Source: Ignavibacteriota bacterium
GTDB lineage: Bacteria; Bacteroidota; Ignavibacteria; UBA10030
Assembly (NCBI GenBank): GCA_963701295.1
Contig: OY969585.1
Span: forward strand, 2,784,001 to 2,848,000
Direction: 5' to 3'
DNA length: 64,000 nt
The notes below the pieces were generated by a model. It saw nothing but the letters and a program-made list of their open reading frames with translations. It had not been told where the DNA came from and ran no database searches. Made by a program: the position numbers and the translations under genes. Shown here in pieces: positions 35,237-51,729 of the stretch; the first letter of the stretch is position 1, and each line of letters starts with the position of its first letter.

Positions 35237-35457
35237 TCTGTGTAGAAATTTCATTTAATCTCATCTCATCGAAAAGTGCTAGCACACTGTTAGCAGTTGA
35301 ATTATGTGCGGAAATAAATACTTCCAATTCTAATTGCAGAAACTCTTTGTATTATTTGAAGGGCAATAATGTTGAAAAATGTTAATTCGAATGTGAAAGA
35401 ACTATGATTCTGGTTAGAAGCACCGCTCATAATATTTTCCCCTAGAACGATATTACT

Positions 35458-35491
35458 TGAAGGTTGCAGGTTCAAGTCCTGCCCCCGCTAC
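35458..35491 (+). tRNA. 3' fragment of an initiator-type tRNA-Met (att-site remnant)
   Basis: GAAGGTT-GCAGG-TTCAAGT-CCTGC-CCCCGCTAC gives a T-arm plus acceptor 3' strand; no intact 5' half. Confidence 0.6.
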
Positions 35492-35507
35492 TTAGTCCAA
35501 AGAAGAA

Positions 35508-35540
35508 TCCTCATCGAATAAAATCGGTGAGGAATTTTTG
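35508..35540 (+). terminator. Hairpin terminator after the tRNA fragment
   Basis: TCCTCATCGA / TCGGTGAGGA followed by ATTTTTG. Confidence 0.6.
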
Positions 35541-35650
35541 TTTTAGGGTGTAATTGTAGTAAGATGTTTTGCTTTTTCTGCCCTTTTAACACCCACGCTT
35601 ATTCAAATTTAGTGTCGCGCTTGGCGTGATTCAGTTATTTGGACAAGCCG

Positions 35651-35671
35651 AGCTTGAGCGTCTGGTTATGC
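35651..35671 (-). repeat. Truncated attC (cassette 11)
   Basis: Only R''/L'' (GCATAAC-CAGAC-GCTCAAGC) remain. Confidence 0.75.
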
Positions 35672-35679
35672 CGCTTATT

Positions 35680-36189
35680 TTATTTGTTTACTTGACCAAA
35701 TAATTGAGCTGCGGGACATCCGAGTTCTTGTTGTTTGCAATACTTACAGGAAAAAGAACTGCGAATAAACTCATTCCCTTTAAAGGAAATCAAAACAATA
35801 GCAATTATTGCAGCTAAAATTATCCATTTAAAATTGATCAATAATGTAATTATTCCGCCAATTAAAGGAAGAACTAGTAATAGCAAATCGGGTATCATAT
35901 CCCACCACGTCGATTTTCGTTCATTAAATTTCTTGGGATCACCTTTGGAGAATACCGATGCACAAATTTTCCCTTTCCCAAATCCGCATAATTTTCCGTA
36001 GTAATAGCAATTTACACATCCCTTGCGATATTGATTTATTTCCATAAAAATGAAATACAATAAATAAAATACAGCAAATATAGTTCCCAATTGAGCAAGG
36101 ATGAATAATCCAATAGCATAAATAGATATCGATAATGCATTAGCTATTGCAATCATCCAAAACGGATAGTTCTCATATTTGGATTGCAT
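35680..36189 (-). CDS. Cassette 11: 4-TM membrane protein with Cys clusters
   Basis: Hydrophobic helices; CVNCYYYGKLC and CKYCKQQELGCP. Confidence 0.7.
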   Translation of the reverse strand: MQSKYENYPFWMIAIANALSISIYAIGLFILAQLGTIFAVFYLLYFIFMEINQYRKGCVNCYYYGKLCGFGKGKICASVFSKGDPKKFNERKSTWWDMIPDLLLLVLPLIGGIITLLINFKWIILAAIIAIVLISFKGNEFIRSSFSCKYCKQQELGCPAAQLFGQVNK

Positions 36190-36225
36190 AGTTAATACTC
36201 CTCACAATTGATCTAAGCGTAAGCG

Positions 36226-36381
36226 GCCTAACGGATCAGCGCTAAGCGGCGGCGTTGATAATTTTCAAGTTGCTGGAAACGAAACAAGTTTATGATATCA
36301 ACTTTCAAATAAACACAAAACCTATGCTCGCCATGAATTTTACAGTGAGCTCATTCCGTCAGCTTGAGCGCCTGGTTAGGC
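36226..36381 (-). repeat. attC (156 bp)
   Basis: GCCTAAC...GTTAGGC with conserved L boxes. Confidence 0.92.
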
Positions 36382-36487
36382 GGCAGATGAATTGAAGAGA
36401 TTTATAACTTCAAAAAATACTTATACTAAATAATTCAATAAAAGTTTTACAATATATATTTTCTGTTTCATTGCGATATTTAGAAAA

Positions 36488-37387
36488 TCATTTTGTTAAG
36501 TAACGCACTATAACTACTCCTGAACCTCCGTTACCACCAGGCATACTTACATACGTTCCGGAAACTAGTCCGCCGCCGCCACCACCACCACCTGTATTTG
36601 GTGTGCCATTGCCTGCAATGGAATTAGTATTTGATCCTGCACCTCCGCCTCCAACGCCCCCAGCACCTGGCGTGTCAGTACCATAAACGCCACCACCACC
36701 ACCGCCTCCATAATAGACATTTGAACCTGAAATACTGAAAGCTAACCCCGGTCCACCATTTCCATTTCCACCAGATCCGGTTCCACCACTTCCAACTCCA
36801 CCCGCACCACCGCCGCCTCCTGCAAGATAATTCCAAGCAGTTCCCCCAAGACCACCAGCATATCCTTGACCAGGTATTCCATCACCGTTGCTATTACCTA
36901 GATTTTGTGGACTGCCGCCTCCACCTGAACCCCCACTGTCTGCCATTGAAAACCTGCTTGCCCCACCACCTCCACCGATTGCTACTACTACATCAAATAT
37001 TGAGTTTGACCCATTTAAAGCTGTAATAGTGTTATCAGTAGAACCACTTCCACCTACTCCAACGATAACAGGTATATTTCCACTTACATAATAATATTTT
37101 TTATATACTACTCCGCCACCACCTCCACCACCAGCCGTATGACATCCCCCACCACCACCTCCTCCTACAACAAGTAATTCCACTAGCCCACTGTCAATAC
37201 AAGAAAATGTTCCGCTGCTGGTAAAAGTATGTATTGTGTAACCTCCGGCTTGGGTTATAGTTCCACCTGTAGCCGAGTTTAACATTCCAAGTGTGATATA
37301 AGTTGGAGCGGTTGATTGATCTTTTTGGCAGCTTGCGATAAATAACAAGCATCCAACTATCATTGAAATTAAAAAGTGTTTTGTCAT
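36488..37387 (-). CDS. Cassette 10: glycine-rich lipoprotein
   Basis: Lipobox FIAS-C; YTIHTFTSSGTF...GGGGGGG...GGSGVVIVRY glycine-rich domain. Confidence 0.8.
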   Translation of the reverse strand: MTKHFLISMIVGCLLFIASCQKDQSTAPTYITLGMLNSATGGTITQAGGYTIHTFTSSGTFSCIDSGLVELLVVGGGGGGGCHTAGGGGGGGVVYKKYYYVSGNIPVIVGVGGSGSTDNTITALNGSNSIFDVVVAIGGGGGASRFSMADSGGSGGGGSPQNLGNSNGDGIPGQGYAGGLGGTAWNYLAGGGGGAGGVGSGGTGSGGNGNGGPGLAFSISGSNVYYGGGGGGGVYGTDTPGAGGVGGGGAGSNTNSIAGNGTPNTGGGGGGGGLVSGTYVSMPGGNGGSGVVIVRYLTK

Positions 37388-37429
37388 GGATATTTCTCCT
37401 ATTAGTTATAGAATGCTAATTTTAAGGTT

Positions 37430-37650
37430 GCCTAACGGACCGGCGCTAAGCTGCGGCGTTGATAACTCTCGTAATGCAACCAACGAAACAAGTTCATGCT
37501 GAAAACCAAATTAATAAACACTCAACCAACGAGGTATTGAAAAGTTAATTATAAAAACTTAAACCCACCATTAGCCATGAATTTCGCACCCAGCTCATTC
37601 CGTCAGCTTGCTTGCCCGCCGTCTTGTTGGGCGGGAGCGCCTGGTTAGGT
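37430..37650 (-). repeat. attC (221 bp, long type, 25-bp hairpin insertion)
   Basis: GCCTAAC...GTTAGGT; insertion at 37611-37635. Confidence 0.9.
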
Positions 37651-37660
37651 TGCAATTGTT

Positions 37661-38873
37661 TCATTTGAGCAAAACAAGTTTTTTTATCTCAGTAAATGAG
37701 CCGGCTTGCAATCGATAAAAATAAAATCCACTCGGCATATTTGACGCATTCCATTGCCGTGTGTAGGTGCCAGCAGATAATTCTTCAGAGGTAATGATTG
37801 CTATTTCTCTTCCAAGTAAATCATATATCTTTAGTAACACATATGATTTCGATGGAATAATAAATGAAATAGTCGTAGATGGATTAAAAGGATTGGGATA
37901 ATTCTGACCAAGCCTGAAATTCGTCGGTAAGTCAGTCGAGAGCTTTTCTACTGAGGTTATTTCTGACAACGGTCGTTTCCAGACGCCGATTTCAGTCCCG
38001 GCAAAGAGATTCGTGCCGGAAACGGTAAGAATATATATAACAGTCTTTGCCAAACCAGTGTTGATAGGAGTCCAGCTTGTGCCATTATTGGTCGAAAGAA
38101 AGACGCCACCGTTCAGAGTCCCGGCAAAGAGATTTGTTCCAGAACCAGTAAGAGCAACGACAGGATTAGACATCAATCCGTTACTCATTGCAATCCAATT
38201 TGTACCGTTATTAGTAGATAGAAAGACACCTAAATCAGTTCCAGCATAGAGATTTGTACCAGAGACGGCAAGTGTAGAGACAATAGGAATATTCGACCAC
38301 CTATCTGTTAGGCCTGTATTCACTGCAGTCCAGCTTGTCCCATTGTTGGTCGATAGGAAAACGCCATCTTCAGTCCCTGCAAAGAGATTAGTACCAGAAA
38401 CAATAATATAGGCTAACTTTAATCCAGTACCTCGCTGCAGACCAACTAGTACCGTTATTGGTGGAAAGAAAAACGCCGTTATAAGTCGCGGCAAATAGAT
38501 TCGTACCGGAGACGGCAAAAGAATAGACAAAAGGGGATGTCAAGTTTGAATCGATTGCTTTCCAGCTTGTGCCATTGTTGGTGGATAGAAAGGCGCCACC
38601 ACCCCAAGTCCCGGCAAAAAGATTCGTACCGGAGAATGTAAGAGCATAGACATAAGGATTTGTCAATCCTGAATCGACTGTAATCCAACTTGTGCCGTCG
38701 TTAGTGGAAAGAAAGACACCGCCAGATCCTCCTGCAAAGAGATTCGTACCACTTGCAGTAATACATTGAATAAAACCATTGTTGGATCCTGTCTGTATCC
38801 ATTGAGCCATGGAAGGATTGATGCCGGATATCATAAAAATACTTAACATTAAAGAACGAATAATGTTTTTCAT
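37661..38873 (-). pseudogene. Cassette 9: BNR/beta-propeller repeat protein with T9SS CTD, frameshifted
   Basis: Repeats of SGTNLFAGT..GVFLSTNNGTSW; ORFs 38388..38873 and 37661..38530 join if one base is removed at about 38431. Confidence 0.85.
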
Positions 38874-38913
38874 ATGTCTGTTTTCTTCTGTTTAGTTACT
38901 ACAACGCAATTGC

Positions 38914-39068
38914 ACCTAACTGACTGGCGCTAAGCTGCGGCGTTGATAATTCTCGTAATGCAACCAAAGAAACAAGTTCATGCTGATTCTTTCAAGTTTG
39001 TACTGACCTATACGTGCAATGTAAATTGCACCCAGCTGGCAACCGTCAGCTTGAGCAGTGGGTTAGGA
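38914..39068 (-). repeat. attC (155 bp)
   Basis: ACCTAAC...GTTAGGA. Confidence 0.9.
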
Positions 39069-39080
39069 TGCAATTGCCAT

Positions 39081-40982
39081 TTACTTAAGCAAAATCATTT
39101 TCTTTGTCTTAACGAAACTTCCGGCAGTGAGTCTGTAGATATACACTCCGCTTGACAACCCACCTGCGTTAAAAGACACCGAGTGAGCACCAGCATTCTG
39201 ACGTTCGTTGACCAATGTTCTTATTTCCCTTCCTAACATATCGTAAACCTCTAAATTTATAAAACTGTTTGTCGGCAACTGATAACCGATGACCGTTGTA
39301 GGATTGAAAGGGTTAGGATAATTTTGATTCAGAACAAAAACGAGTGGAACATGCGAGCTTGTTCGCGAGACAACGCTCGTTACTGATGTTATCCAGGTCA
39401 GAGCCGCTTTTGCAACATCATCTTCACCTTTTGCGACACCATCTGGCGTTAACCAAACCTTGTCATCCATTTGAAATTCCACGTGTGTAAGATAATGAGG
39501 AAGACTGTCTTCCAAGACATACCCATTCAACCATGCGTACTGGGCAAAACAAATACTGTCGATACTTGTTATCTGATCGGATGCATATCCTGAAGCAGGA
39601 GGTTCCCCGAAAAACCGTGCCTTGGGGTGATTACGCAATTGTGTCGCTATAAAATCGTTAGCACTCACTGAATTTGGCCCCATTAGAACCGCGATTGGTT
39701 TATCGAAGAATCGCGTTGAATCGACAAACATGGAGAAAGTTGAAAAATACATCATCGAGAAATGATCGAACGGATCGTTGCGGCTCGCCAAATAAATCGG
39801 CGGGGGCGCGACTTTGAATAGAAGCGAAAGCCCTTCATCAGCATTCTCTACGTACCCTCCTTGGTTTGAGCGAATATCGATGACTATACCGTCCACCTTG
39901 TAGATGCGTGTCAGAGAGTCGATTGCATTGAAGAAATGTAAATTTGAATTAAACCAAGTCCACGAATAGACGTATCCGATGTTTGTACCCTGAACAATTC
40001 CCCACCGAACATCCTTAGCAGATGTGATCGAATCAGTCATCGGGACGCCTGCGACAGGTAGTTGTTCCGTACAAAACAAGCTTAAGTCTTTACCAATAAG
40101 AAGACTGGTGGGAAGATGCAGTGTGTCTCTCGTTGAATATTTTATGATGTCGATTGTATCAAAGAGATGCCAGTTTCTCCCAGCAGATTGAAGCCATGAA
40201 TGTGCGAACGCCCCTGCGTTTCCTCCCCAATACGATGTGAACGAAATTGGCAGCTCCATCTTAAGCAATCGAGGATAGAGTTGTTTCCACGGCACACCGT
40301 CATACCCCAGGACAATATCCCCGGGAACTAGCCCCAACGGATGCGATGGAATCGATTTGTAAACCAGAACGGTACTATCCTCAAGAGGAGTGAGTCCTGC
40401 GCCAAAACTATCGTCGTTTCCCCAACCCCCAGCAAATAACATAGGTATTCCTGGTGTGCCTCTTGTGAGATTCGTAATGCCCATATCTCCTATGTGAGTA
40501 TGCGGCTCCATCAATGCAATGGACATCTGACTGAGAATGGCTGCAAATCGGCCACGACTGACCCCTTTTTCGATCTCGGGCCGGTATTTGTTCTTGAGGA
40601 CGTTCCAATCGAAATCAAGATTTTGGAAACAGGCAAACTTCTGGTCGATCATTGTCCATACCGAATCGAAAGCTTGCAATTCTTCCGTTGCTGGAGCAGT
40701 CCCCCAAATACTATTCACTCGATCATGCCAATCAGACTTAAGGATATCGAGGGCTTGTGATTCAAGAATTGTGCTGGCACAAATCACAATGAGACAGCAC
40801 AGTAGAAAATTCTTCCAAATTAAGCGATTCTTGAATCCATCAAGAAATTCTTCCAAACTGATATTATGGGATAAATGATTGATATTTGTCAACTGTAGTA
40901 GAGCGGACGTTTCAGCTGTGCAGTTCTTCCGGACGGATCGTCTAAGTGTTAAATGTCTAGGGCAACAATGCTTAATTACCAA
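39081..40982 (-). CDS. Cassette 8: S41-family peptidase with T9SS CTD (start uncertain)
   Basis: IVIDIRSNQGG, VLMGPNSVSANDF, FFGEP; QNYPNPFNP CTD; signal-like segment at about 40830-40760. Confidence 0.8.
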   Translation of the reverse strand: MVIKHCCPRHLTLRRSVRKNCTAETSALLQLTNINHLSHNISLEEFLDGFKNRLIWKNFLLCCLIVICASTILESQALDILKSDWHDRVNSIWGTAPATEELQAFDSVWTMIDQKFACFQNLDFDWNVLKNKYRPEIEKGVSRGRFAAILSQMSIALMEPHTHIGDMGITNLTRGTPGIPMLFAGGWGNDDSFGAGLTPLEDSTVLVYKSIPSHPLGLVPGDIVLGYDGVPWKQLYPRLLKMELPISFTSYWGGNAGAFAHSWLQSAGRNWHLFDTIDIIKYSTRDTLHLPTSLLIGKDLSLFCTEQLPVAGVPMTDSITSAKDVRWGIVQGTNIGYVYSWTWFNSNLHFFNAIDSLTRIYKVDGIVIDIRSNQGGYVENADEGLSLLFKVAPPPIYLASRNDPFDHFSMMYFSTFSMFVDSTRFFDKPIAVLMGPNSVSANDFIATQLRNHPKARFFGEPPASGYASDQITSIDSICFAQYAWLNGYVLEDSLPHYLTHVEFQMDDKVWLTPDGVAKGEDDVAKAALTWITSVTSVVSRTSSHVPLVFVLNQNYPNPFNPTTVIGYQLPTNSFINLEVYDMLGREIRTLVNERQNAGAHSVSFNAGGLSSGVYIYRLTAGSFVKTKKMILLK

Positions 40983-41075
40983 ATAAACTCCCAGGCGTCA
41001 AAGAAACAAGAATTTCTAGAACCAGAAGAATTGTAGATATATTATTAAGAAACTCATTTTATATATTTTCCTGCT

Positions 41076-41232
41076 GCCTAACCAACGTCGCAGAAGCTAC
41101 CGTACTGATAATTTTCAAAATATTGATAACGAAACAAGTTCATTGTACCTACTTTCAAATTAATATAAAATCTACGCTCGCCGTGAATTTTGCAGTGAGC
41201 TCATTCCGTCAGCTTGGAGCTGCTGGTTATAC
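41076..41232 (-). repeat. attC (157 bp, degenerate)
   Basis: GCCTAAC...GTTATAC; L boxes diverged. Confidence 0.8.
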
Positions 41233-41241
41233 CGCTTGCAT

Positions 41242-42192
41242 TTATTTCTTGTCTTTCAAATATTTGCTATAAAATTCGGCGATCTTATTAAAAAACTCCG
41301 GATAGGTGATGAATTCCGGCCCGTTCATGCCGCCGTGTTCGGCATGAGGCACTATCCATAATTCTTTTTGTCCCTTCAATTCACCCGCTATTTTCTTCGA
41401 CATCCAGACTGGCGTGCGATTATCCTTTTCGCCGACAATTAAGAACACCGGAATCGAAACTTTCTTTGCTGCGTTTACTGGCAACAGTTCAATGGGATAA
41501 TTTTCCGGCGGTAAAAAATTTCTGTCAGGAGAAACTTGTTTCAGTATCGGTAAAAGATCAGCAAATGATGTCAGCAACGCTCGGCCGACATAGGCTGCTA
41601 TGTCGTTCCTCTTTGCGGCGATAGCGAAAGACAAATAAGCACCGGTGGAAAAGCCCATGACACCAATTCGCATTGTATCAACTTCCGGCTGTTGCTTTAA
41701 GAAATCGACAGCCGCATTATAATCGGTAATGAATTCCGCATAGCACAATCTATCCTCTTCAGTTGGCCAATCCGAGCTTTCTCCGAAACCACGCCAATCA
41801 AAGAGCAGAACATTGTAACCCCGCGTAAACAAATGATAACCATAAAAAATTAGCTGCGTCATATTTCCAGCATCACCATCGCAAATAATGATGGTCGGCC
41901 TCCTCGAATCATCCAACGTTGTATATAGCCTCGCTTTGGGTTTGAGTTCTTGAGGTACCGGCACAATCCGTCCGATGATCGAGTTAGCTATACCTGAAGT
42001 ATCCTGTGCCGGGAAAAACCAGCCCTTCAATTTAAGACTGTCGGCAGTTTGAATTACAACTTGTCTGTAAATGATTCCGTAATCTGAAGGGATTGCGCGG
42101 TACTGTCTTTCTGGTTTGAGTGCATACAACAACGAAGAGGTGAGAAGAAGCAAGGAAACCAGCGATAACAGGGAAGTTCTAAACTTAACCAT
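41242..42192 (-). CDS. Cassette 7: exported alpha/beta hydrolase
   Basis: FDWRGFGES, GFSTG nucleophile elbow, GEKD, AEH. Confidence 0.85.
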   Translation of the reverse strand: MVKFRTSLLSLVSLLLLTSSLLYALKPERQYRAIPSDYGIIYRQVVIQTADSLKLKGWFFPAQDTSGIANSIIGRIVPVPQELKPKARLYTTLDDSRRPTIIICDGDAGNMTQLIFYGYHLFTRGYNVLLFDWRGFGESSDWPTEEDRLCYAEFITDYNAAVDFLKQQPEVDTMRIGVMGFSTGAYLSFAIAAKRNDIAAYVGRALLTSFADLLPILKQVSPDRNFLPPENYPIELLPVNAAKKVSIPVFLIVGEKDNRTPVWMSKKIAGELKGQKELWIVPHAEHGGMNGPEFITYPEFFNKIAEFYSKYLKDKK

Positions 42193-42288
42193 TTTGTCAT
42201 CTCCTTTTTAACATGGATTCTCTATCTCAAAATTTTGAATCGAACATACAAACAGTAATGTTATCTAACTTTCATAAAAGTGCAAGAG

Positions 42289-42470
42289 GCATAATGGATC
42301 GGCGCTAAGCTGCAGCGCTGATAACTTTCATAATGTACTAAACGAACCAAGTTCATTCACTTCACTTTCAATTCTGCACTTGACCTCTACGCGCAATGCA
42401 AAATGCACTCGCGCTTTTACCGTCAGCTTGCTTGCCCGCCGTCTTGTTGGGCGGGAGCGCCTGGTTAGGC
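42289..42470 (-). repeat. attC (182 bp; 25-bp insertion; R' core GTT mutated to ATT)
   Basis: Plus strand GCATAAT...GTTAGGC; insertion at 42431-42455. Confidence 0.85.
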
Positions 42471-42477
42471 GGCTTTG

Positions 42478-43152
42478 CTAAAATGATGTCGTATCTTCTT
42501 TAACAGAAATAATTTTCCCGTTTTTATAAGACTTAATAGTCGTGATAGATCGCTTGTTCTCAAAGTCGTTGTAGGTATCTACTTCTCTAAGTAGAATTAA
42601 TTTGCCATTTTTGAAACAATGAGTATAGACAGCACCACCAGTACTCCCTCCTGCATCATAAGATGTAATTGTATGTTTAACAGAATCAGGGTCTGGATCT
42701 CTTAACTCGCTAAAATCATCATTAAATACATACTTGCCTGTTTTTGGATTGTACAGCCAAACATAATTTTGTCCTCCAGCACTTCCGTCGTTATACTCTA
42801 TAAGAATATCATTATAACCATCAAAATTCATGTCCTTTGTCTCAACAGCTCTCGGATTAAAAATAAAATCATCATTTTTAGGCAAATGGAGCCTTTGTAA
42901 TATTTTATTACTGCCTTCTTGTCGCACCTCTATTCGGATTACCTTTGGACCAGGATCAACATTCTGTTCCCAATCACTTACGAATACCGAAAATTTATAT
43001 TGAGGTAATTGCTTCGCCACAGTTATCGTAAAGTCATATTGGTTATCAGAGACCTTAACAAACGGTACTTGCGCAAGATATTGGGCGACTACAATTTCAG
43101 TGAAAGAAAATAGAAACAAATGCAAAGCAACCACTTTATATAATATTTTCAT
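42478..43152 (-). CDS. Cassette 6: exported protein, XAC2610-related
   Basis: Signal peptide from ATG 43152; DMNFDGYND motif and YVWLYNPKTGKY. Confidence 0.65.
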   Translation of the reverse strand: MKILYKVVALHLFLFSFTEIVVAQYLAQVPFVKVSDNQYDFTITVAKQLPQYKFSVFVSDWEQNVDPGPKVIRIEVRQEGSNKILQRLHLPKNDDFIFNPRAVETKDMNFDGYNDILIEYNDGSAGGQNYVWLYNPKTGKYVFNDDFSELRDPDPDSVKHTITSYDAGGSTGGAVYTHCFKNGKLILLREVDTYNDFENKRSITTIKSYKNGKIISVKEDTTSF

Positions 43153-43187
43153 CTCGTCATATCCTTTGATTAGTACTGAGCAATGCC

Positions 43188-43339
43188 AGCTAACGGTCCT
43201 AAGCTGCGGCGTTGAAAAGCTGCAAGATGCACCCAGCAAAATGAGTTCACGCTGATAATTTTTAATTTTGCACCCGACCTCTGCACGCCATGCGTAACGT
43301 ACCCGGCTGGCAACCGTCAGCTTGAGCGCCTGGTTAGGC
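43188..43339 (-). repeat. attC (152 bp)
   Basis: AGCTAAC...GTTAGGC; shortened L'-R' spacer. Confidence 0.88.
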
Positions 43340-43349
43340 AGCGTAAGAT

Positions 43350-43694
43350 TTAACGTAACCAGACAAAGCTACCATTTATCTCTTTAGCAAGTGTAACTGC
43401 GCCGTTGCCATAGTCATGACAAAAAATGTATTGATGAGGTAAGCGCAGTGCGACATCTTTAAATTTATGGTTTTTGTCCATAAGCTCGTCAAGAACTTGT
43501 TTAGAGCGTGATATTTTAGCTTTTGCCATTTCCGGAGTTGTATTCTCAATGTTCCATTCTGAATAACTATAAACGACTAAACAATTATCCTTCTCTTTCG
43601 AGAATACAACGCCATGATAATTAAAGGCATTACCCTCAATAAATTGATCTATGGCAATTTCAATACGCTGTGGCGTTGCGTCGGTAATATCCAT
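43350..43694 (-). CDS. Cassette 5: hypothetical protein
   Basis: 114-aa ORF filling the space between two attC sites; RBS AAGGAAG. Confidence 0.75.
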   Translation of the reverse strand: MDITDATPQRIEIAIDQFIEGNAFNYHGVVFSKEKDNCLVVYSYSEWNIENTTPEMAKAKISRSKQVLDELMDKNHKFKDVALRLPHQYIFCHDYGNGAVTLAKEINGSFVWLR

Positions 43695-43982
43695 TATTCT
43701 TCCTTACGCTGCCTAACGGATTGCGGCTAAGCTGCCGCATGACCAACTTTAATTAACCACAAAACGAAACGAGTTCATGCTGATAACAAAATTAACATGT
43801 ACTCAACCAATGAAGTACTGAAAAGTTAATAATAAAAACGTCAAACCACCATCAGCCATGTAAATTGCTCCAACGCTCATCCGGTCAGCTTGAGCCGCTG
43901 GATATTACCAAAAAGGAATCTCCCGATTATGTACATTGATAATTCTCTAGGTCACCAACATCCACAATCTAAGGAGATTCCC

Positions 43983-44984
43983 ATGTATTACTCAGGTATC
44001 GATTTGCATTCTGATAATTGTTTTATCACCACTGTTGATGACACTGGTGCTGTCATCAAGCGACAACGTGTCGAGAATAACAATGAACGTGTTCTTGATT
44101 ACTTCCACTCTCTGCCCGGTCCTCATCACGCAGTCGTTGAGTCTACCACAGGATGGTACTGGCTCAACGATCTTCTCAGCGATCACGGCATCGAGCTTGT
44201 CCTTGCTCACGCCAAATATCTCAAAGCCATCAGTTATGCTAAAGTTAAAACAGATAAAGTCGATTCGCAAACTCTTGCTCTTCTCTTACGACAGGGACTC
44301 ATTCCACGGGCTCACAAAATCAGCCGAGAACTACGCGGCCTGCGCGATACCATGCGTATTCGTCTACGGCTCGTTCAGCAACGAACTGCCAGTCTTCTGC
44401 GTCTCTACAGTATTCAGACCAAATTTAACGGCTCTGTTCCGGATCCGTATCGTTTTCAACTTGCTGTCTTGCAACATACCAGAGACACTTTTACTGCTCA
44501 GATCCTCTCGCTGGAAAAATCTCTCCATCCTGTGCTGATTCCCAACGACGATATTCAACGGCTCTTGCACATTCCAGGTATCGGCAAGCTCACCGCATTC
44601 ACGGTGTATCTTGAAATCGACGGCATTGAACGATTCGACTCCGATAAAAAGTTTGTCTCTTACTGCCGACTCGTCCCTGCTGCCGATAACTCCAATCGCT
44701 CTGTGCACCATCGCTCCAGCAAAGACGGCAATAAGTATCTCAAAATCGCCTTCTCCGATGCCGCTGTTCATGCTATTCAGTACTATCCGGAATACAAACG
44801 CTTATTCCAGAAATTAGCTCGTCGCTCCAATGAGGCGACTGCGCGAACCGTCGTTGCCAAAGAACTTGCGAAGATTGTTTACTATGTCTTAAAAAACAAA
44901 ACAATATATAAAGGTCTCAAAGGTCAGCCGATCAGCCGGCATAAATCTCAGCAGTGGCCGCGCCTCTCAAGCCCGCTTTCCTAA
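43983..44984 (+). CDS. IS110-family DEDD recombinase/transposase
   Basis: GIDLH, VEST, KTDKVDS (DEDD), IPGIG, DNS serine loop, GNKYLK; ATG 43983 with AAGGAG RBS. Confidence 0.95.
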   Translation: MYYSGIDLHSDNCFITTVDDTGAVIKRQRVENNNERVLDYFHSLPGPHHAVVESTTGWYWLNDLLSDHGIELVLAHAKYLKAISYAKVKTDKVDSQTLALLLRQGLIPRAHKISRELRGLRDTMRIRLRLVQQRTASLLRLYSIQTKFNGSVPDPYRFQLAVLQHTRDTFTAQILSLEKSLHPVLIPNDDIQRLLHIPGIGKLTAFTVYLEIDGIERFDSDKKFVSYCRLVPAADNSNRSVHHRSSKDGNKYLKIAFSDAAVHAIQYYPEYKRLFQKLARRSNEATARTVVAKELAKIVYYVLKNKTIYKGLKGQPISRHKSQQWPRLSSPLS

Positions 44985-45240
44985 CTGATCCCGACTGCGT
45001 CGGGATCGTTCGCTGGATTGGGAAGAGAGTGCGCTGTGCCGTGGTAATATCTGGAACATCTCGCTCGACGAGATACGCTTTCACCATCGTTTCTTCAATG
45101 AGTGAATGTAAATCCGTAAACTGGTTTGGACGGCATTGCTCTGGTAATCGCCTGTCTATTCGATAGAGAACGCGGCATCGGCACGGATTCGGTCGTCCTT
45201 AATGTTAAAGAACTCTGCATTCCGATTGCGCGGAACGCAT
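44961..45240 (+). ncRNA. Predicted bridge RNA / seekRNA
   Basis: Guides CCTAAC (44980-85) and CGCTGG (45011-16) match the target; TGGTAATATC (45042-51) and TAAACTGG (45117-24) match the donor junction; each pair lies in a stem-closed loop. RNA ends approximate. Confidence 0.85.
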
Positions 45241-45294
45241 CGGGAGTATATTATTTACTTGACTCTTTCCTTTTTAAACTGGTTAGGCAGCGCT

Positions 45295-45699
45295 TTATTT
45301 CTTATCGTTCTTTGAATCTAATTTTTTCATCTCGAAACCTCTAACGATGACATACGCAATGAGAGCAACCAGAAAAAATATAAGGAGCATCCACGCAATA
45401 CTCTGCAATGAATCGATAATAGATTTGTACACCTCTATAATCCATCGGTCAGAAGTAAGCTGAAGAATTCTGCCTTCTTTGTCCGATGTAATGTACTTTT
45501 CGAGATCCCATAATCTCACTCCGCCGGAAATGCCAACAACAAATATTGCAAAGAGGATGTACCGTCGCCAAGTGGGAGCCAGATCCTCGCTGACAAGTCG
45601 GCTAAGAATTTTTGTAATGGGTCGTGCGAAGAGGAATGCAACCAAAGTTGACATCGCCAATGCAATAACGAAGGTTACAATTAACAATGTGACAAACAT
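45295..45699 (-). CDS. Cassette 4: 3-TM membrane protein
   Basis: Hydrophobic ORF with GGAGG RBS between attC sites. Confidence 0.8.
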   Translation of the reverse strand: MFVTLLIVTFVIALAMSTLVAFLFARPITKILSRLVSEDLAPTWRRYILFAIFVVGISGGVRLWDLEKYITSDKEGRILQLTSDRWIIEVYKSIIDSLQSIAWMLLIFFLVALIAYVIVRGFEMKKLDSKNDKK

Positions 45700-45734
45700 G
45701 TGATACCTCCTTTTGACAAATAACTTAAAGCGCT

Positions 45735-45889
45735 GCCTAACGGACGCGGCTAAGCTGCGACGACGAAAACTATCAATCTTGTACCCAACGAAACGAGTTC
45801 AAGCAGGATCTTTCCAATTCCACAAGAACACTATTTGCCATGTTTAATGTACCGTCGCGCAATTCGTCAGCTTGAGCCGCTGGTTGCGC
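45735..45889 (-). repeat. attC (155 bp)
   Basis: GCCTAAC...GTTGCGC (R'' appears to have lost one base). Confidence 0.88.
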
Positions 45890-45895
45890 GCAAAG

Positions 45896-46375
45896 TTACC
45901 CGCATCCACAGCCACCCTGTGCTTTAACCATTTCGGTTCGAGTTTCGTTCTTAATAGTTATGATACTCTCCATCCACTCGAATTCACAATTATCGTTTGT
46001 TGGAGAACATACAGTGAGAAATATAAGCTTTACCTTGACGAAATATTTCCCGTATGAGTATAGCTTAATAATAGAATCGCCGACCTGTAATAATTTCTTT
46101 TGCGGCCGTACTTCTTCAATCAACTTGAGACTAATGTCATGACCATCGAGGTTCATCCAACCGATGGTGTCCTTAGCCGATCCGTCGCTGTGAAAAATGT
46201 CGCCAGACTTATGCGTGGCATCTAGATAGAAATTGCAGCCGCATTCGTCTCTATGCTCAGGAATAGATATGGGTGCAACAATGGATTTTTCCTGCGACAA
46301 TGAAAATTGGCTAGATATAGTGCATGCTAAACAGCATACGAATAAAAAGCAGAACCTATTTAGAATTATAATCAT
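45896..46375 (-). CDS. Cassette 3: exported hypothetical protein (CGC motifs at both ends)
   Basis: Signal-like N-terminus; ECGCNF and GGCGCG. Confidence 0.7.
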   Translation of the reverse strand: MIIILNRFCFLFVCCLACTISSQFSLSQEKSIVAPISIPEHRDECGCNFYLDATHKSGDIFHSDGSAKDTIGWMNLDGHDISLKLIEEVRPQKKLLQVGDSIIKLYSYGKYFVKVKLIFLTVCSPTNDNCEFEWMESIITIKNETRTEMVKAQGGCGCG

Positions 46376-46390
46376 TGATTTTACTTTGCG

Positions 46391-46578
46391 CGCTAACGGA
46401 CCGCAACTAAGCTGCGGCGCTGATAATTTTCAATATACACAAAACGAAGTGAGTTCATGCTAAAAGTTTATTATTAAACATCTAAACCTCTACGCGCCAT
46501 GCTTAACGTACCCATTTACCCGCCATGCTTTATCTTTGGGCGAGCGCTCATTCCGTCAGCTTGAGCGCCTGGTTAGGT
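46391..46578 (-). repeat. attC (188 bp, about 30-bp hairpin insertion)
   Basis: CGCTAAC...GTTAGGT; insertion at about 46515-46545. Confidence 0.9.
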
Positions 46579-46591
46579 GAACTTGCAACTA

Positions 46592-48796
46592 CTATTTGAT
46601 TAACAACATTTTCTTTACCACAAAAAAACCTCCAGCTTCGATGCGATAGAAATATACTCCGGAGGCAGAGGAAGATCCATTCCACTCTCTTGAATATGAT
46701 CCTGAATCTAAATCTCTATCGACAAGAGTTGCTATCTGATTGCCTAACAAATCAAAGATCCTGACGTGAACTTTACATCGAAAAGGAATAGAGAAATTGA
46801 TTCTTGTCAACGGATTAAAAGGGTTTGGGTAGTTCTGCTCCAGATGGAATCCATTAATCTTATTATTACTAGATTGTTGTACGTTCGTTGTCGAATGAAT
46901 GCTTCTAAATACGCCCTGCCTATAAGTGCCTGCAAATAGAAGTCCTGAATGATCTGGGGCCAAGGCAAAAACAGAAGTACTCGTCAAACCGTTGTTCAGA
47001 AGATTCCATGTTACACCAGCATCTGTTGACTGGAAAACTCCATCGCCAGAGTTACTATAGCTACCAACATAAATGTTCGATCTGGAGTTTAATGCGATAC
47101 AATTAATTGAAACATTTGGAAGACCAATATTTTCCCATGACAGACCATTGTTGTTAGAACGAAATAATCCATTGTCATAAGTCCCTGCATAAAGGTTTCC
47201 CACTGAATCAACTGCAAGACTGTAAATGTACGTATCTGGAATTCCTATACTAGTTGACGTCCAATTGTTGCCATTGTCAGTAGTGCGAAAAACATGTCCA
47301 CTTGGGAGTCCATTTACATTGCCAGTTCCAGCATAAATGAAGCCACTATTCGGCACTGCAATCATGCAGTTTACACTCCAATCTTCGAGACCAACATTTG
47401 CTTGTGCCCAAGTATCTCCACGGTCTGTGGATCGATAGACACCGAGATATGATCCAGCGAAGATACTTTGGTTCGGTGCTATTGCAAGAGCATTGAGTCT
47501 GATGGAATCCAAAGGCGTTTGCATCCAAGTAGCGCCAAGGTTCGTGCTTCGATATACACCATTGCTAGTACCAGTATAGACCCAATTACTCGAATCGATT
47601 GAGATCGATTGAATCCATGAACTTTTCAGACCCTCGTTAGATTCTTGCCAACTCGTGCCCCCATCGGTAGAACGGAATAGTCCATTGCCAATGTATGGCC
47701 CCGAATAGCCATAACCAGTTCCAGCAAAGATATATCCATTCCGACTAACACAGATCGAATGAATCCATGTATTGAGTAATCCGAGATTTCCTTCCGACCA
47801 GTGAGCACCAAAGTCTGTGGAAAAGCAAATGCCGCCACCTCCGGTACCTGTAAACAAACGGCCAGAGTGATCCGAATAAATCGAGTTTATGTACATGCTT
47901 GATAATCCATTGCTGGAACCCAGCCAACTGATGCCATGATTGGTCGAGCAAAAGACTCCATGACCTAAAGAGGCTGAGACCTGACCGGTGCCAGCATACA
48001 GGCGATTGGCATTGTCAGCCACTAGAGAGTGAATGTACTCGGCGGGTAAGCCAGAGTCAGCTGTGAACCAGTCATCTCCAGAATTTGTGGAGCGATACAC
48101 CTGACCAGCATATGTCCCAGCGTATACATCATTGTTTAAATCGACAGTGATGGCAGAAATCCATTCTGGTTGTTTAACGACAACCCAGGAATTACCACCA
48201 TCAGTTGACCGATGTAATCCACCAGTTCCTCCACCAGTCATACCGTGATACTCTTCCTCGGTTCCTGCGAAAATGAAGCCCTGTTGATTCTCCGCAAAAG
48301 CCCGAATGGAAAAGTTTGTCAATCCAATATTCAATTGATACCACGAACTACCCTCATTTGTTGATCGATAGATACCACCGCCAGATGTCCCAACAAAAAC
48401 AGCTCCGTTTCGAGTGATAAGAAGAACATTGGTGTATGTTGAAGTCATCCAGTTATCGATACGTTCCCAGCTTTGTGCATGATTTGTCGACTTGAAAACA
48501 CCCTCTACAGTTCCAACAAAAAGAACGGTATCAGATCCTACAGCAATAGTTGTAATTGATAATGAAGTCAATCCAGCATTTGAAGAAGACCAACTTTTTC
48601 CTTCATCGGTTGATTTGAAGATGCCACTTCCATCAGTGCCAGCGTAGAGTGTGCCATTAGAATCGGACACAATCGATGACACGTACGCCCCAAAAGGTCC
48701 ATTTGATTGCTGCCAGAAGTTTGCCTGAGCAATAGCAAATGTTGGAATAAGAAACAAAAAGCAAATGATTAAATACTTCATATGATACTTCCACAT
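46592..48796 (-). CDS. Cassette 2: large BNR/beta-propeller repeat protein with T9SS CTD
   Basis: About 14 AGT..G(V/L)(F/Y)RSTDxGxSW repeats; QNYPNPFNP CTD. Confidence 0.88.
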   Translation of the reverse strand: MWKYHMKYLIICFLFLIPTFAIAQANFWQQSNGPFGAYVSSIVSDSNGTLYAGTDGSGIFKSTDEGKSWSSSNAGLTSLSITTIAVGSDTVLFVGTVEGVFKSTNHAQSWERIDNWMTSTYTNVLLITRNGAVFVGTSGGGIYRSTNEGSSWYQLNIGLTNFSIRAFAENQQGFIFAGTEEEYHGMTGGGTGGLHRSTDGGNSWVVVKQPEWISAITVDLNNDVYAGTYAGQVYRSTNSGDDWFTADSGLPAEYIHSLVADNANRLYAGTGQVSASLGHGVFCSTNHGISWLGSSNGLSSMYINSIYSDHSGRLFTGTGGGGICFSTDFGAHWSEGNLGLLNTWIHSICVSRNGYIFAGTGYGYSGPYIGNGLFRSTDGGTSWQESNEGLKSSWIQSISIDSSNWVYTGTSNGVYRSTNLGATWMQTPLDSIRLNALAIAPNQSIFAGSYLGVYRSTDRGDTWAQANVGLEDWSVNCMIAVPNSGFIYAGTGNVNGLPSGHVFRTTDNGNNWTSTSIGIPDTYIYSLAVDSVGNLYAGTYDNGLFRSNNNGLSWENIGLPNVSINCIALNSRSNIYVGSYSNSGDGVFQSTDAGVTWNLLNNGLTSTSVFALAPDHSGLLFAGTYRQGVFRSIHSTTNVQQSSNNKINGFHLEQNYPNPFNPLTRINFSIPFRCKVHVRIFDLLGNQIATLVDRDLDSGSYSREWNGSSSASGVYFYRIEAGGFFVVKKMLLIK

Positions 48797-48811
48797 TATT
48801 TATGCAAGTTC

Positions 48812-49008
48812 ACCTAACGGACCGGCGCTAAGCTGCGGCAATGATAACCCGCAAGCTGCTGAAAACGAACTAAGTTCATTCTGAAAACCAAATTAAATAT
48901 TCCTCAACCAATGAGGTACTGAAAAGTTAATTATAAAAACCTAAACCCACCACAAGCAATGCTTAACGTACCCCAGCTCATTCCGTCAGCTTGAGCGCCT
49001 GGTTAGAA
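48812..49008 (-). repeat. attC (197 bp, long type)
   Basis: ACCTAAC...GTTAGAA. Confidence 0.92.
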
Positions 49009-49063
49009 CGCACGCGGCACAATTTATAAATGATGAACAAAATGGATATTGTTTAATTGTAAG

Positions 49064-49660
49064 TCACATTTCTTTCGTAACGTTATCAACCCATGTCGCA
49101 AAATTCTCATATCCGTCATCTGCTACCCAATCATAAACGGAATACCACTTTTTTAATTGATAAGTTTGGCTCCACTCCTCACGTGGGAGTTGATTTTCCA
49201 GCGTGTATCCGTTTTTATCCACGCTGGTTTGCCAAGCCGTGTTATTCCATTCGAGAAATTCCAGACTTGTTCCATTGCCATTATAACGGATTGCTAAATA
49301 ATCGAATGGATTCGGGCCAAGTGCTTTGATCGTTTGGCTTTTATCTTTAATACTATTTATATGAACTCCGAACATACCGTTTCCTTTCGATATGCTCTTG
49401 AATATTTCATATCGAACCCAGCGACGGGCATATGTATCACTTCCAATTAGTACAACTGTAGCGGATGTGTTCACGAGCGCATCATCAATAAGGCGTTTGA
49501 TTGCTTCAGGGCCGGTTTTTCGTGCTTTTTCCCAAATTGAAGCGTCAAAAAATCCCGCATCATCTCTGGTCTCTTTAGTCAGGTCATGTTTTCGAACAAC
49601 GTTCGCGCGAAACGTTTCAACATCCTCATAGTCAAAGCTGAAAAATACTCTTTTTGCCAT
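49064..49660 (-). CDS. Cassette 1b: TIR-domain protein (ThsB/DUF1863-like)
   Basis: KRVFFSFDYED...TSATVVLIGSDTYARRWVRYEI with the catalytic-type Glu. Confidence 0.88.
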   Translation of the reverse strand: MAKRVFFSFDYEDVETFRANVVRKHDLTKETRDDAGFFDASIWEKARKTGPEAIKRLIDDALVNTSATVVLIGSDTYARRWVRYEIFKSISKGNGMFGVHINSIKDKSQTIKALGPNPFDYLAIRYNGNGTSLEFLEWNNTAWQTSVDKNGYTLENQLPREEWSQTYQLKKWYSVYDWVADDGYENFATWVDNVTKEM

Positions 49661-49662
49661 AT

Positions 49663-50058
49663 TTAAAGTGTCCACATGATTAAGATGATTGTCCCAATCA
49701 ACACTGCATAAAAAGGGAGAATCGTTTTTGAAAATACTGTCTTGAGATATGTATGTTTATCCATGGCATTTTGGGAAAACTTCATGGAAAAATCTATACT
49801 TGATTCCTCCTTTATCCTTACTTCATCATACAACTCTCTAAACAACCTTTCCTGCCATAAGTAATAAGAATCAAGAAGCCAAAAGATGAAGATCGGAATA
49901 TATGCGATGAGGATGTACTGGTTCTTAGTTCCAGAAGAAAGCGCTGTTAGAGCCGCAACAATTGTGATACACCATCCTTTAGCAAAAAATGAATTGTTTC
50001 CAAGTCTGTTAATAACGCCCTGGATAAATTCTAAATGTTTGAGTTTCTTTTCGTTCAT
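49663..50058 (-). CDS. Cassette 1a: small transmembrane protein coupled to the TIR gene
   Basis: KHLEFIQGVINRLGNNSFFAKGW...FWLLDSYYLWQERLFRELYD; three hydrophobic segments; 2 bp from the TIR start. Confidence 0.75.
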   Translation of the reverse strand: MNEKKLKHLEFIQGVINRLGNNSFFAKGWCITIVAALTALSSGTKNQYILIAYIPIFIFWLLDSYYLWQERLFRELYDEVRIKEESSIDFSMKFSQNAMDKHTYLKTVFSKTILPFYAVLIGTIILIMWTL

Positions 50059-50097
50059 GGAATCACCATAGTCTAAAGATCAAAGAATTTTCGTGCG

Positions 50098-50171
50098 TTC
50101 TAACAATGATTAGACTGCATACCACAGCCTAATACGCTTTTTTGTGTGTTAGACTACATATTGCGGCCTAA
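50098..50171 (-). other. attI-like site
   Basis: G/TTAGAA core at 50104 is not preceded by an attC; two 23-bp direct repeats (50110-32, 50149-71; 18/23 identical). Confidence 0.75.
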
Positions 50172-50254
50172 CATGATGAACTTGGTAACTATGAAACGGA
50201 TTCTGGCAGCTCCCAACAATTCCCCACTTTCTTCGGATACTTATCCGCGCAGGT

Positions 50255-50283
50255 AATCTATCAATAGCATCTTTAAAACGCAA
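50255..50283 (-). promoter_or_regulatory. Candidate Pc cassette promoter
   Basis: TTGCGT-17 bp-TAGATT with TGn extension, pointing into attI. Confidence 0.5.
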
Positions 50284-50595
50284 GGGAATAAATTTCTATC
50301 CTCGAAGAAGCCCTAAGAGACCCTAATATTTTCCAGAAACAAAATATTAGAAATCGAATCGCCATATGGAATGAAAATAATTTCCAGAAAAAATTATAGG
50401 AAAACCACTTCCCCATCCTCTCTACATTGATTCCTCTGGTATATCGAAGTAGAAGATACTCCAGAAACTCCTGTAAGGCTTAAAAGGTTGAGGCTCAAAA
50501 GAATGCTATTCTGAATCCTCTTTTTACTTAGCATCGTAAAGAAAAGCGCTCAATCTTGCGCTTTTCTCCACCGTCACAGATAGGCAACGGCTTTA

Positions 50596-50619
50596 TGTTG
50601 GAGGGATTGTCGGAGGGAT
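50596..50619. repeat. Tandem 12-bp direct repeat (arm-type site-like)
   Basis: TGTTGGAGGGAT TGTCGGAGGGAT. Confidence 0.55.
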
Positions 50620-50880
50620 GGAAAGCGGGTGAAAAGCGCGGACGGGACAGTATCGAGTAACATAGACAACAACGCCATAGTTGAACCAAAGGTGAAATAA
50701 AAGCATTAATATGTTATCGTAGATTTGTTTGCTGTTTATTGGCGGGAATGTTACACTCATTGGCGAAGAGCCAAATAATGGCGTGTTCAAATTGAAAAGA
50801 CAGATCTGCAAAAATATTTGTACCCAAATTGTAACATTTTGAAAATTCTTGTATCTAAAAGGCAAACAACAGGAGAATCT

Positions 50881-51729
50881 ATGAAACAGTTTGCCAAATT
50901 ATCAATTCTAATCGCTTTCTCAGCTTTGACAATGAATGTCTTTGGGCAAAGCAATAATTACCCTTTTGAAATAAAAATCTCTGGAAAAGGAATTCATTCA
51001 ATAATCTTCATCCCCGGTTTTGCTTGTTCGGGAAAAGTTTGGGATGAAACAAAAATACTCTACGAAACTAAGTACACTTGCTACATTTTGACTATGGCTG
51101 GTTTTGCAGAAGTTCCTCCTCAGTCTCAACCAACATTTCAGAATTGGGAGAAAGCCATTGCTGCATACATCCAACAAAACAAAATAGACAAGCCCATCAT
51201 TGTAGGGCATAGTTTAGGCGGTGGTTTAGCTATGGCATTAGCTGCTGATTATCCTGATCTCATTTCTAAAATAGTTATTGTCGATGCACTGCCTTGTTTG
51301 GCTGCATTAATGGATACTTCGTTTCAAGTAAAAGAAAACAATGATTGTAGTGCTATGGTATCACAAATCACATCAGCAACGAACGAACAGTTTTATCAAA
51401 TGCAAAAACAAAACATACCACATTTATTGGCAGATACATCAAAACATGACCTTGTGGTTAGCTGGTCGGTTCAATCAGACAGAACAACATTTGCAGAAAT
51501 GTATTGTGATTTTTCTAATACTGACTTACGAGAGAAGATTTCTGGTATTACATGCCCTGCATTAATTTTATTGGAATCATCTTTCGAGAACTTCAAACCG
51601 GCAATAAATGAACAATTCAAAAATCTGAAGACTTCCAATTTGCAATATGCCACGAAAGGTCTCCACTTTATTATGTATGACGACAAAGATTGGTATAACA
51701 CACAACTCAACAACTTTATTGGACGATAA
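50881..51729 (+). CDS. Exported alpha/beta hydrolase
   Basis: FIPGF, GHSLGG, LHFIMYD; ATG 50881 with AGGAGA RBS; upstream TGTAAC...GTATCT ECF-like promoter at 50830-56. Confidence 0.88.
   Translation: MKQFAKLSILIAFSALTMNVFGQSNNYPFEIKISGKGIHSIIFIPGFACSGKVWDETKILYETKYTCYILTMAGFAEVPPQSQPTFQNWEKAIAAYIQQNKIDKPIIVGHSLGGGLAMALAADYPDLISKIVIVDALPCLAALMDTSFQVKENNDCSAMVSQITSATNEQFYQMQKQNIPHLLADTSKHDLVVSWSVQSDRTTFAEMYCDFSNTDLREKISGITCPALILLESSFENFKPAINEQFKNLKTSNLQYATKGLHFIMYDDKDWYNTQLNNFIGR

What the first reader, a model, noticed from the sequence alone, without database searches (positions are those of the whole stretch)
49009..50104. First cassette is a two-gene TM + TIR module, a Thoeris-like defence candidate without ThsA
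Seen: a 131-aa membrane protein tightly coupled to a ThsB/DUF1863-like TIR protein with an intact WVxYE motif, in the attI-proximal slot. Established: ThsB TIR domains make NAD-derived signals for SIR2-SLOG or TM-macro effectors, and integron cassettes often encode phage defence. Inference: the small TM protein has no recognisable ligand-binding domain and may be a distinct pore-type effector.
Basis: partly seen in the sequence, partly recalled or inferred. Interest (0 to 1): 0.7.

Follow-up and report, generated by a model that had tools for sequence, protein, structure and literature searches.

The report
Catalogued TIR-plus-membrane-protein defence cassette
This is a real two-gene integron cassette that matches an already catalogued anti-phage candidate (PADLOC PDC-M50), in which an enzyme likely makes a small NAD-derived alarm molecule on infection and a small membrane protein is predicted to respond by damaging the infected cell's membrane.

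Summary
Observation confirmed. A 131-aa three-helix membrane protein (50058-49663) and a 198-aa ThsB-type TIR (49660-49064, E85 intact) form one integron cassette behind an attI-like site. The genome's only intI lies about 730 kb away.

It is not new. Both genes match PADLOC PDC-M50A/B (E 2e-50, 1.6e-57), and this scan found PDC-M50 before on other DNA (three notes).

The TIR is about 54% identical, without gaps, to B. cereus ThsB, which makes 3'cADPR. A TIR gene lies beside the membrane gene in 71 of 92 related loci (82 with weak hits), from at least five TIR groups. The membrane domain also occurs fused to SLOG or HIT domains. This supports signal-gated membrane-effector Thoeris (0.8).

Thoeris systems with small membrane effectors were validated in 2025 (types V, VII). 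The family is remotely related to DUF2270 and is probably type V ThsF (about 0.5), or else type IX. I could not confirm this because the preprint's supplements are closed. No defence was tested here.

A side finding may matter more: one integrase gene and six attI-headed arrays scattered round the chromosome.

The parts
50098..50184 (-). attI-like site; crossover predicted between 50104 and 50103
   Evidence: 92% identical to the site beside the genome's only intI and 88-93% to four other array heads; alignments diverge right after the core
48818..50103 (-). First gene cassette (1,286 bp) of the array
   Evidence: 13-bp complementarity between cassette start (50104 downward) and its attC start (49002-49014) read; core sites located
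49663..50058 (-). 131-aa three-TM protein, PDC-M50A family; predicted membrane effector
   Evidence: PADLOC E 2e-50; hydropathy and conserved polar residues; AF2 helical hairpin plus C-terminal helix, pLDDT 93
49064..49660 (-). 198-aa ThsB-type TIR, PDC-M50B; F6 and E85 present
   Evidence: Pfam E 3.7e-19; PADLOC M50B 1.6e-57, ThsB 9.7e-55; full-length ungapped match to 6LHY/9B7D, E 8e-64
48812..49008 (-). attC site of the cassette (about 197 bp)
   Evidence: member of the repeat families D1/D2/D5; bottom strand folds into a long hairpin, -25.5 kcal/mol, no shuffle control run

Best explanation
The cassette encodes a PDC-M50 pair that likely works as a signalling Thoeris anti-phage system: the TIR is predicted to sense infection and turn NAD+ into a cyclic ADP-ribose isomer (most likely 3'cADPR), and the three-helix membrane protein is predicted to bind that signal, oligomerise and disrupt the membrane so that the infected cell aborts. 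Shown: cassette structure, both ORFs, family identity, TIR clade, conserved pairing, fusions. Inferred: phage sensing, identity of the signal, a pocket formed by the conserved polar residues on the cytoplasmic ends of the helical hairpin, pore formation, expression from the first slot. The effector family is probably type V ThsF (about 0.5), otherwise type IX ThsJ (about 0.2) or an untested type (about 0.3).
For: TIR: about 54% identical (104 of 191, counted by hand), ungapped, to B. cereus MSX-D12 ThsB (6LHY per PMC7272460); type I TIRs make 3'cADPR. Pairing: a same-strand TIR within 1.1 kb in 71 of 92 loci, 82 of 92 with weak hits, 17 with two or more TIRs. Comparison families: canonical DUF2270 0 of 9 loci, 8xMP 2 of 13. 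The 101 TIR neighbours fall into five groups of six or more plus COR-TIR and singletons: constant membrane protein, swappable TIR, as expected for an effector. No SIR2, SLOG or Macro family among 149 non-TIR-clade neighbours and none in this genome (those searches had no positive control). The domain is fused to SLOG (P0298) and to HIT beside a TIR (L114). Conserved K7, H8, E10, Q13, R18, N22, K27, D63, E70, R74, Y77 in 82-100% of 379 sequences. Remote link to DUF2270: hhalign E 5.7e-4, score 30.9 against 13.9 reversed; HMM median +5.2 bits against -1.35 reversed. Many neighbours are restriction-modification genes.
Against: No phage or biochemical test. No solved structure resembles the membrane protein convincingly. 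The DUF2270 link is weak (probability 29%) and 8xMP also hits DUF2270 (E 0.0024), so type V membership is unproven. In the source paper 3'cADPR did not trigger one of two type V systems or the type IX system, so even a 3'cADPR-making TIR need not gate the effector by that molecule alone. 10 of 92 loci show no TIR, four of them with at least 1 kb on both sides. No promoter above chance upstream: 5 sites against 5.5 expected.
Confidence: 0.8

Rival explanations
1. The roles are reversed: the membrane protein senses infection or anchors the TIR, and the TIR is the NAD-depleting killer.
For: The Thoeris survey warns that some unverified TIR pairs may work this way. Some partners are long COR-TIR or 260-290 aa TIR proteins.
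Against: This TIR belongs to the signalling ThsB clade over its whole length. TIRs vary and are often multiple while the membrane protein is constant. The membrane domain is fused to nucleotide-binding SLOG and HIT domains.
Confidence: 0.1
2. The TIR signals to a canonical ThsA encoded elsewhere and the membrane protein is an accessory gene.
For: The TIR is close to type I ThsB.
Against: No STALD or ThsA_Macro match in this 99%-complete genome (no positive control). The two genes travel as one cassette with nothing else in it. No ThsA-type family among 149 neighbours.
Confidence: 0.05
3. The pair is an addiction or anti-plasmid module that stabilises the array, not a phage defence.
For: Homologues are common on plasmids (148 records). 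Toxin-antitoxin cassettes are known from large arrays (recalled).
Against: No antitoxin-like feature. TIR clade and restriction-modification neighbourhoods point to defence.
Confidence: 0.05

Closest known systems
PADLOC phage defence candidate PDC-M50 (M50A + M50B; PDC set of Payne et al., bioRxiv 10.1101/2024.01.29.577857)
   Same: Both genes hit the two models full length, adjacent and co-oriented; 108 of 108 homologues hit M50A.
   Different: Here it is an integron cassette. In the passages read, PDCs are predictions released for future study; M50 is not named in the main text and the supplements are closed.
Type V Thoeris (ThsB + ThsF 'DUF2270'; Yirmiya et al., bioRxiv 10.64898/2025.12.03.692087)
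   Same: Two genes; three predicted TM helices; TIR of a cluster shared with type I; 3'cADPR clade; remote DUF2270 similarity; frequent in this phylum (11 of 401 genomes), as type V is said to be in Bacteroidota.
   Different: No Pfam DUF2270 hit above cut-off (8 of 108 members weak, best E 0.0059). ThsF sequences and HMMs were not available, so identity is inferred.
Type IX and type XI Thoeris (same preprint)
   Same: Type IX TIR also makes 3'cADPR. TIR plus HIT-M50A fusions in Actinobacteria resemble type XI, described as a hydrolase effector from an Actinobacteria scaffold.
   Different: ThsJ is not described in the text read. This cassette has no HIT domain.
Type I Thoeris of Bacillus cereus MSX-D12 (ThsA SIR2-SLOG + ThsB, PDB 6LHY)
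   Same: TIR about 54% identical, ungapped, with F6 and E85.
   Different: No SIR2-SLOG effector in the cassette or detected in the genome.
TIR-IV of E. coli (Wang et al. 2024, PMC11350192)
   Same: Two-protein TIR system; its listed hosts (Enterobacterales, lactobacilli, Priestia, Campylobacter) overlap the plasmid hosts of M50A.
   Different: No accession shared between its table and the clusters looked up; equivalence not shown. The E. coli partner TIR (287 aa) is a different group from this TIR.

Membership tests
PDC-M50 | M50A HMM match | tested here: met
   E 2e-50, positions 1-130 of 134
PDC-M50 | Adjacent M50B (TIR) HMM match | tested here: met
   E 1.6e-57, best PADLOC hit; 2 nt apart. 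PADLOC's own rule file was not run.
Thoeris (signalling TIR + effector) | ThsB-type TIR with catalytic glutamate | tested here: met
   PF08937, E85, ungapped match to 6LHY; the catalytic role of E85 is recalled
Thoeris (signalling TIR + effector) | Conserved operonic pairing with a putative effector | tested here: met
   71 of 92 loci strong, 82 of 92 with weak hits
Thoeris (signalling TIR + effector) | Phage-triggered ADPR-derived signal and protection | not testable with these tools
   needs LC-MS and plaque assays
Type I Thoeris | SIR2-SLOG ThsA effector | tested here: not met
   none in the cassette; no STALD match in the genome, without positive control
Type II Thoeris | TM-Macro effector | tested here: not met
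   the 131-aa protein has no Macro hit; no ThsA_Macro match in the genome, without positive control
Type V Thoeris | Effector with three TM helices | tested here: met
   hydropathy peaks near residues 22-40, 49-67, 112-130; AF2 model
Type V Thoeris | Effector annotated DUF2270 / matches ThsF HMM | tested here: inconclusive
   remote similarity only; ThsF HMM unavailable; canonical DUF2270 had no TIR neighbour in 9 loci, which suggests that ThsF is a remote relative labelled by HHsearch (method)
Type V Thoeris | Ring-shaped homo-oligomer activated by 3'cADPR | not testable with these tools
   heptamer not modelled; activation needs experiment
Type VII Thoeris | SLATT-domain effector | tested here: not met
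   no SLATT family among the 25 of 35 Pfam families shown for 108 members at E up to 0.1
Type IX Thoeris | ThsJ effector | not testable with these tools
   effector defined only in figures and closed supplements
TIR-IV (Wang 2024) | Homology to TIR-IV-A and -B | tested here: inconclusive
   no accession match in 16 homologue clusters looked up, at most 15 members and 4 accessions shown each; table parts 5 and 6 of 7 read
Integron gene cassette | ORFs between a recombination core and a self-complementary attC | tested here: met
Complete integron | intI adjacent to attI | tested here: not met
   only intI over cut-off is at C1:3566721-3567662; the 351-aa recombinase at 55164-54109 scores 86.8 against a cut-off of 265

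The most novel reading that the evidence does not exclude
M50A is none of the validated Thoeris effectors. It is a very large, untested minimal signal-gated pore domain (5,837 clusters at 50% identity) that bacteria plug onto at least five unrelated TIR groups and fuse to SLOG, HIT and 8xMP domains, so one fold would read several different NAD-derived signals. This cassette, with a TIR close to the 3'cADPR-making ThsB, would be the cleanest test case.
Probability: 0.25. Interest if true: 0.55.

Novelty: new member of a known kind. Interest (0 to 1): 0.25.

Why it matters
As a system it is ordinary: a catalogued candidate, likely a member of a Thoeris type validated in 2025. Two points have residual value. 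First, PDC-M50A looks like one membrane-effector domain shared by a stand-alone form and by SLOG and HIT fusions, which would link a PADLOC candidate to types V and XI. Second, a TIR nearly co-linear with the best-studied ThsB but paired with a membrane protein allows a simple effector-swap experiment. Its place in the first slot of an array suggests recent capture or reshuffling (inference).

Tried and rejected
Fold searches of the AF2 monomer found nothing: Foldseek had no PDB match at E up to 0.001; VIA-align gave best Z 8.9 to generic helical hairpins, under the noise level for helical bundles. The ESCRT-III-like hits were rejected.

The four-copy complex prediction gave no verdict (score 0.13) and is not used as evidence either way.

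Homology to 8xMP was suggested by the Atlas (0.85, run on homologue P0126) and by 8 of 108 weak Pfam hits. It was not supported by hhalign (E 0.25-0.39). With a single DUF2270 sequence hhalign was also not significant (E 0.088); the signal appeared only with nine sequences, and global mode gave nothing.

TIR-IV equivalence: accession look-ups found no match. Comparing the paper's primers by eye with two E. coli loci found only one IS1-derived reverse primer, which is uninformative. A full in-silico PCR was not run.

The genome-contig scan with the single protein returned one locus. A DUF2270 search in the phylum of G401 found 0 of 301. Promoter scan was at chance level. Rfam found nothing in 34000-51500. 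NCBIfam had no hit for either gene.

Literature searches: 'PDC-M50' 0 papers; 'TIR-IV' only the original paper; 'DUF2270' only the Thoeris preprint; 'ThsJ/ThsF/type IX Thoeris' only that preprint among relevant hits. The library lacks most subscription papers. DefenseFinder was not available.

Full report
Observation. The TIR matches Pfam ThsB_TIR (E 3.7e-19) and carries WVRYE with E85. The small protein has no Pfam family above cut-off and no NCBIfam hit. It has three hydrophobic segments, and AlphaFold2 models a long helical hairpin (residues 3-41, 46-81) plus a C-terminal helix at pLDDT 93.

Cassette context. Repeat families of about 170-200 bp recur between the genes from 36 to 49 kb. The cassette starts at 50103 and its first bases are complementary over 13 bp to the start of its own attC at 49002-49014; the attC ends at the next core site, 48812-48818. 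The 85 bp at 50100-50184 are 92% identical to the sequence beside the genome's only integron integrase and diverge from it right after the core. That integrase is at C1:3566670-3567665, about 730 kb away; it is the only match over the TIGR02249 cut-off. So the first-slot claim holds, but this array has no integrase of its own.

It is already catalogued. PADLOC assigns the membrane protein to PDC-M50A (E 2e-50) and the TIR to PDC-M50B (1.6e-57) and ThsB (9.7e-55); 108 of 108 aligned homologues hit M50A. PDCs are 145 predicted systems released for future study (Payne et al., 10.1101/2024.01.29.577857; section 10 and passages read; supplements closed, and they may say more on M50). A full-text search for 'PDC-M50' found 0 papers. 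Three earlier notes of this scan name PDC-M50 on other genomes.

Family size and pairing. The profile finds 5,837 representatives at 50% clustering, 148 plasmid records and 11 of 401 genomes of this phylum, this one included. I examined 95 loci and dropped three (this locus and two duplicates). The 92 left were 78 metagenome loci (from the best 80 of 421), 10 phylum loci, one GTDB locus and three plasmid loci that I picked from 148. A same-strand TIR lies within 1.1 kb in 71 of 92 on strong evidence and 82 of 92 with weak hits (two of those are doubtful overlapping ORFs); 17 have two or more. Ten have none: six with under 1 kb of flank on one side, four with more. For comparison, canonical DUF2270 genes had a TIR neighbour in 0 of 9 loci and 8xMP genes in 2 of 13 (1.5 kb flanks). 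The 101 TIR neighbours form five groups of six or more, plus COR-TIR and singletons; seven are full-length relatives of this TIR at 48-63% identity. Among 149 further neighbours scanned with Pfam, none matched SIR2, SLOG or Macro families at E up to 1e-4, and many were restriction-modification genes. These loci are related and are not independent events.

Evidence for the effector role. The membrane protein is the constant part and the TIR the variable, often multiple part. The domain occurs fused C-terminal to a SLOG domain (P0298, LD_cluster2 E 1.7e-15; P0292 looks similar but has no Pfam hit), to an 8xMP domain (P0352) and to a HIT domain directly behind a TIR gene in Actinobacteria (L114). 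Polar residues K7, H8, E10, Q13, R18, N22, K27, D63, E70, R74 and Y77 are kept in 82-100% of 379 sequences. They lie at the ends of the two hairpin helices away from the loop, which suggests a cytoplasmic pocket (inference; no coordinates were inspected). No STALD or ThsA_Macro match exists in this 99%-complete genome, though those searches had no positive control.

The signal. The TIR aligns without gaps over 191 residues to PDB 6LHY and 9B7D (E 8e-64; about 54% identity counted by hand). 6LHY is B. cereus MSX-D12 ThsB (PMC7272460, passages). Type I TIRs make 3'cADPR. 3'cADPR is therefore the likely product; this is a prediction.

Relation to validated systems. Yirmiya et al. (10.64898/2025.12.03.692087; main text parts 1-7 of 8 read; figures and supplements not seen) validated Thoeris types V-XI. 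Type V has a three-TM effector labelled DUF2270, responds to 3'cADPR, is modelled as a heptameric ring, shares a TIR cluster with type I and is enriched in Bacteroidota. Canonical DUF2270 genes do not fit that description: they were found in 1 of 301 genomes of this phylum, mostly in haloarchaea and alphaproteobacteria on plasmids, and never beside a TIR in nine loci. The authors also annotated clusters by HHsearch. M50A is remotely similar to DUF2270: hhalign E 5.7e-4, score 30.9 against 13.9 for a reversed control; HMM median +5.2 against -1.35 bits. The phylum here is inferred to be Bacteroidota in the broad sense from a type IX secretion tail in the next cassette. So M50A is probably ThsF (about 0.5). 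Against this, the probability was only 29%, 8xMP also hits DUF2270 (E 0.0024), and type IX, whose TIR also makes 3'cADPR, has an effector that the text does not describe. TIR-IV of Wang et al. (PMC11350192; section 6, passages, and supplement files 1, 3, 4 in part and 5 in part; the main supplement PDF was too large to read) has overlapping hosts, but no accession matched. Two further papers were checked by passages and added nothing on this family (PMC13434031; PMC13069673).

Negative results. No structural match. The four-copy complex job gave no verdict. No promoter signal above chance; that scan does not cover Bacteroidota-type promoters (recalled).

Verdict. A real, intact cassette encoding a catalogued TIR plus membrane-effector defence pair, likely a Thoeris type already validated. 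Novelty: new member of a known kind. Interest 0.25. The dispersed arrays with one integrase, listed under things noticed in passing, may deserve their own look.

Noticed in passing
window 50100-50184; G000:C1 224100, 1796905, 2464749, 3172042, 3566438 (partial copy at 3446561): The genome has one intI but six near-identical attI-like sites (88-93%), each heading a separate attC array round the chromosome, plus further arrays without a full copy. This suggests one integrase serving dispersed arrays in trans. The site occurs in 10 of 15 same-genus genomes, in 2-4 copies in four of them. One literature search listed 7 papers on CALINs and integrons; I saw listings only.
   Followed up: partly
window 50069-50055 (-): A four-codon mini-ORF ends in an ATGA overlap with the start of the membrane gene, 34 nt after the crossover; it may couple translation or be chance.
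   Followed up: no
window 43890-44984 (+): An IS110-family transposase lies right at an attC copy (43882), opposite to the cassette direction; resembles attC-targeting IS1111 elements (recalled).
   Followed up: no
window 48796-46592 (-): The second cassette is a 734-aa BNR/Vps10 beta-propeller protein with a type IX secretion tail, unusually large for a cassette; its ends are also self-complementary.
   Followed up: no
window 50337-50486: A roughly 150-bp non-coding element upstream of attI recurs at five or more other places in the genome at 67-91% identity; 50100-50320 is shared with the array head at C1:3172042. No Rfam match.
   Followed up: no
G000:C1:2497718-2497930: Short integrase-like remnant (92-aa open frame) at the far end of the 2.465-2.496 Mb array; possibly a decayed second intI.
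   Followed up: no
L083:3410-3682, L092:496-768: A 90-aa DUF1599 (nucleotide modification associated domain) gene lies between the M50A gene and the TIR in two loci.
   Followed up: no
L012:1928-3367, L074:204-2279: M50A genes directly follow Roc-COR-TIR genes, a possible NLR-like sensor feeding the same effector.
   Followed up: no
L002, L096: An M50A + 287-aa TIR pair flanked by IS26-type elements is spread on E. coli and Klebsiella plasmids and chromosomes (33 of 5,426 E. coli genomes).
   Followed up: partly
G000:C1:557865-558128: A second ThsB-like TIR match (E 4.2e-6) in a 918-aa open frame elsewhere in the genome.
   Followed up: no
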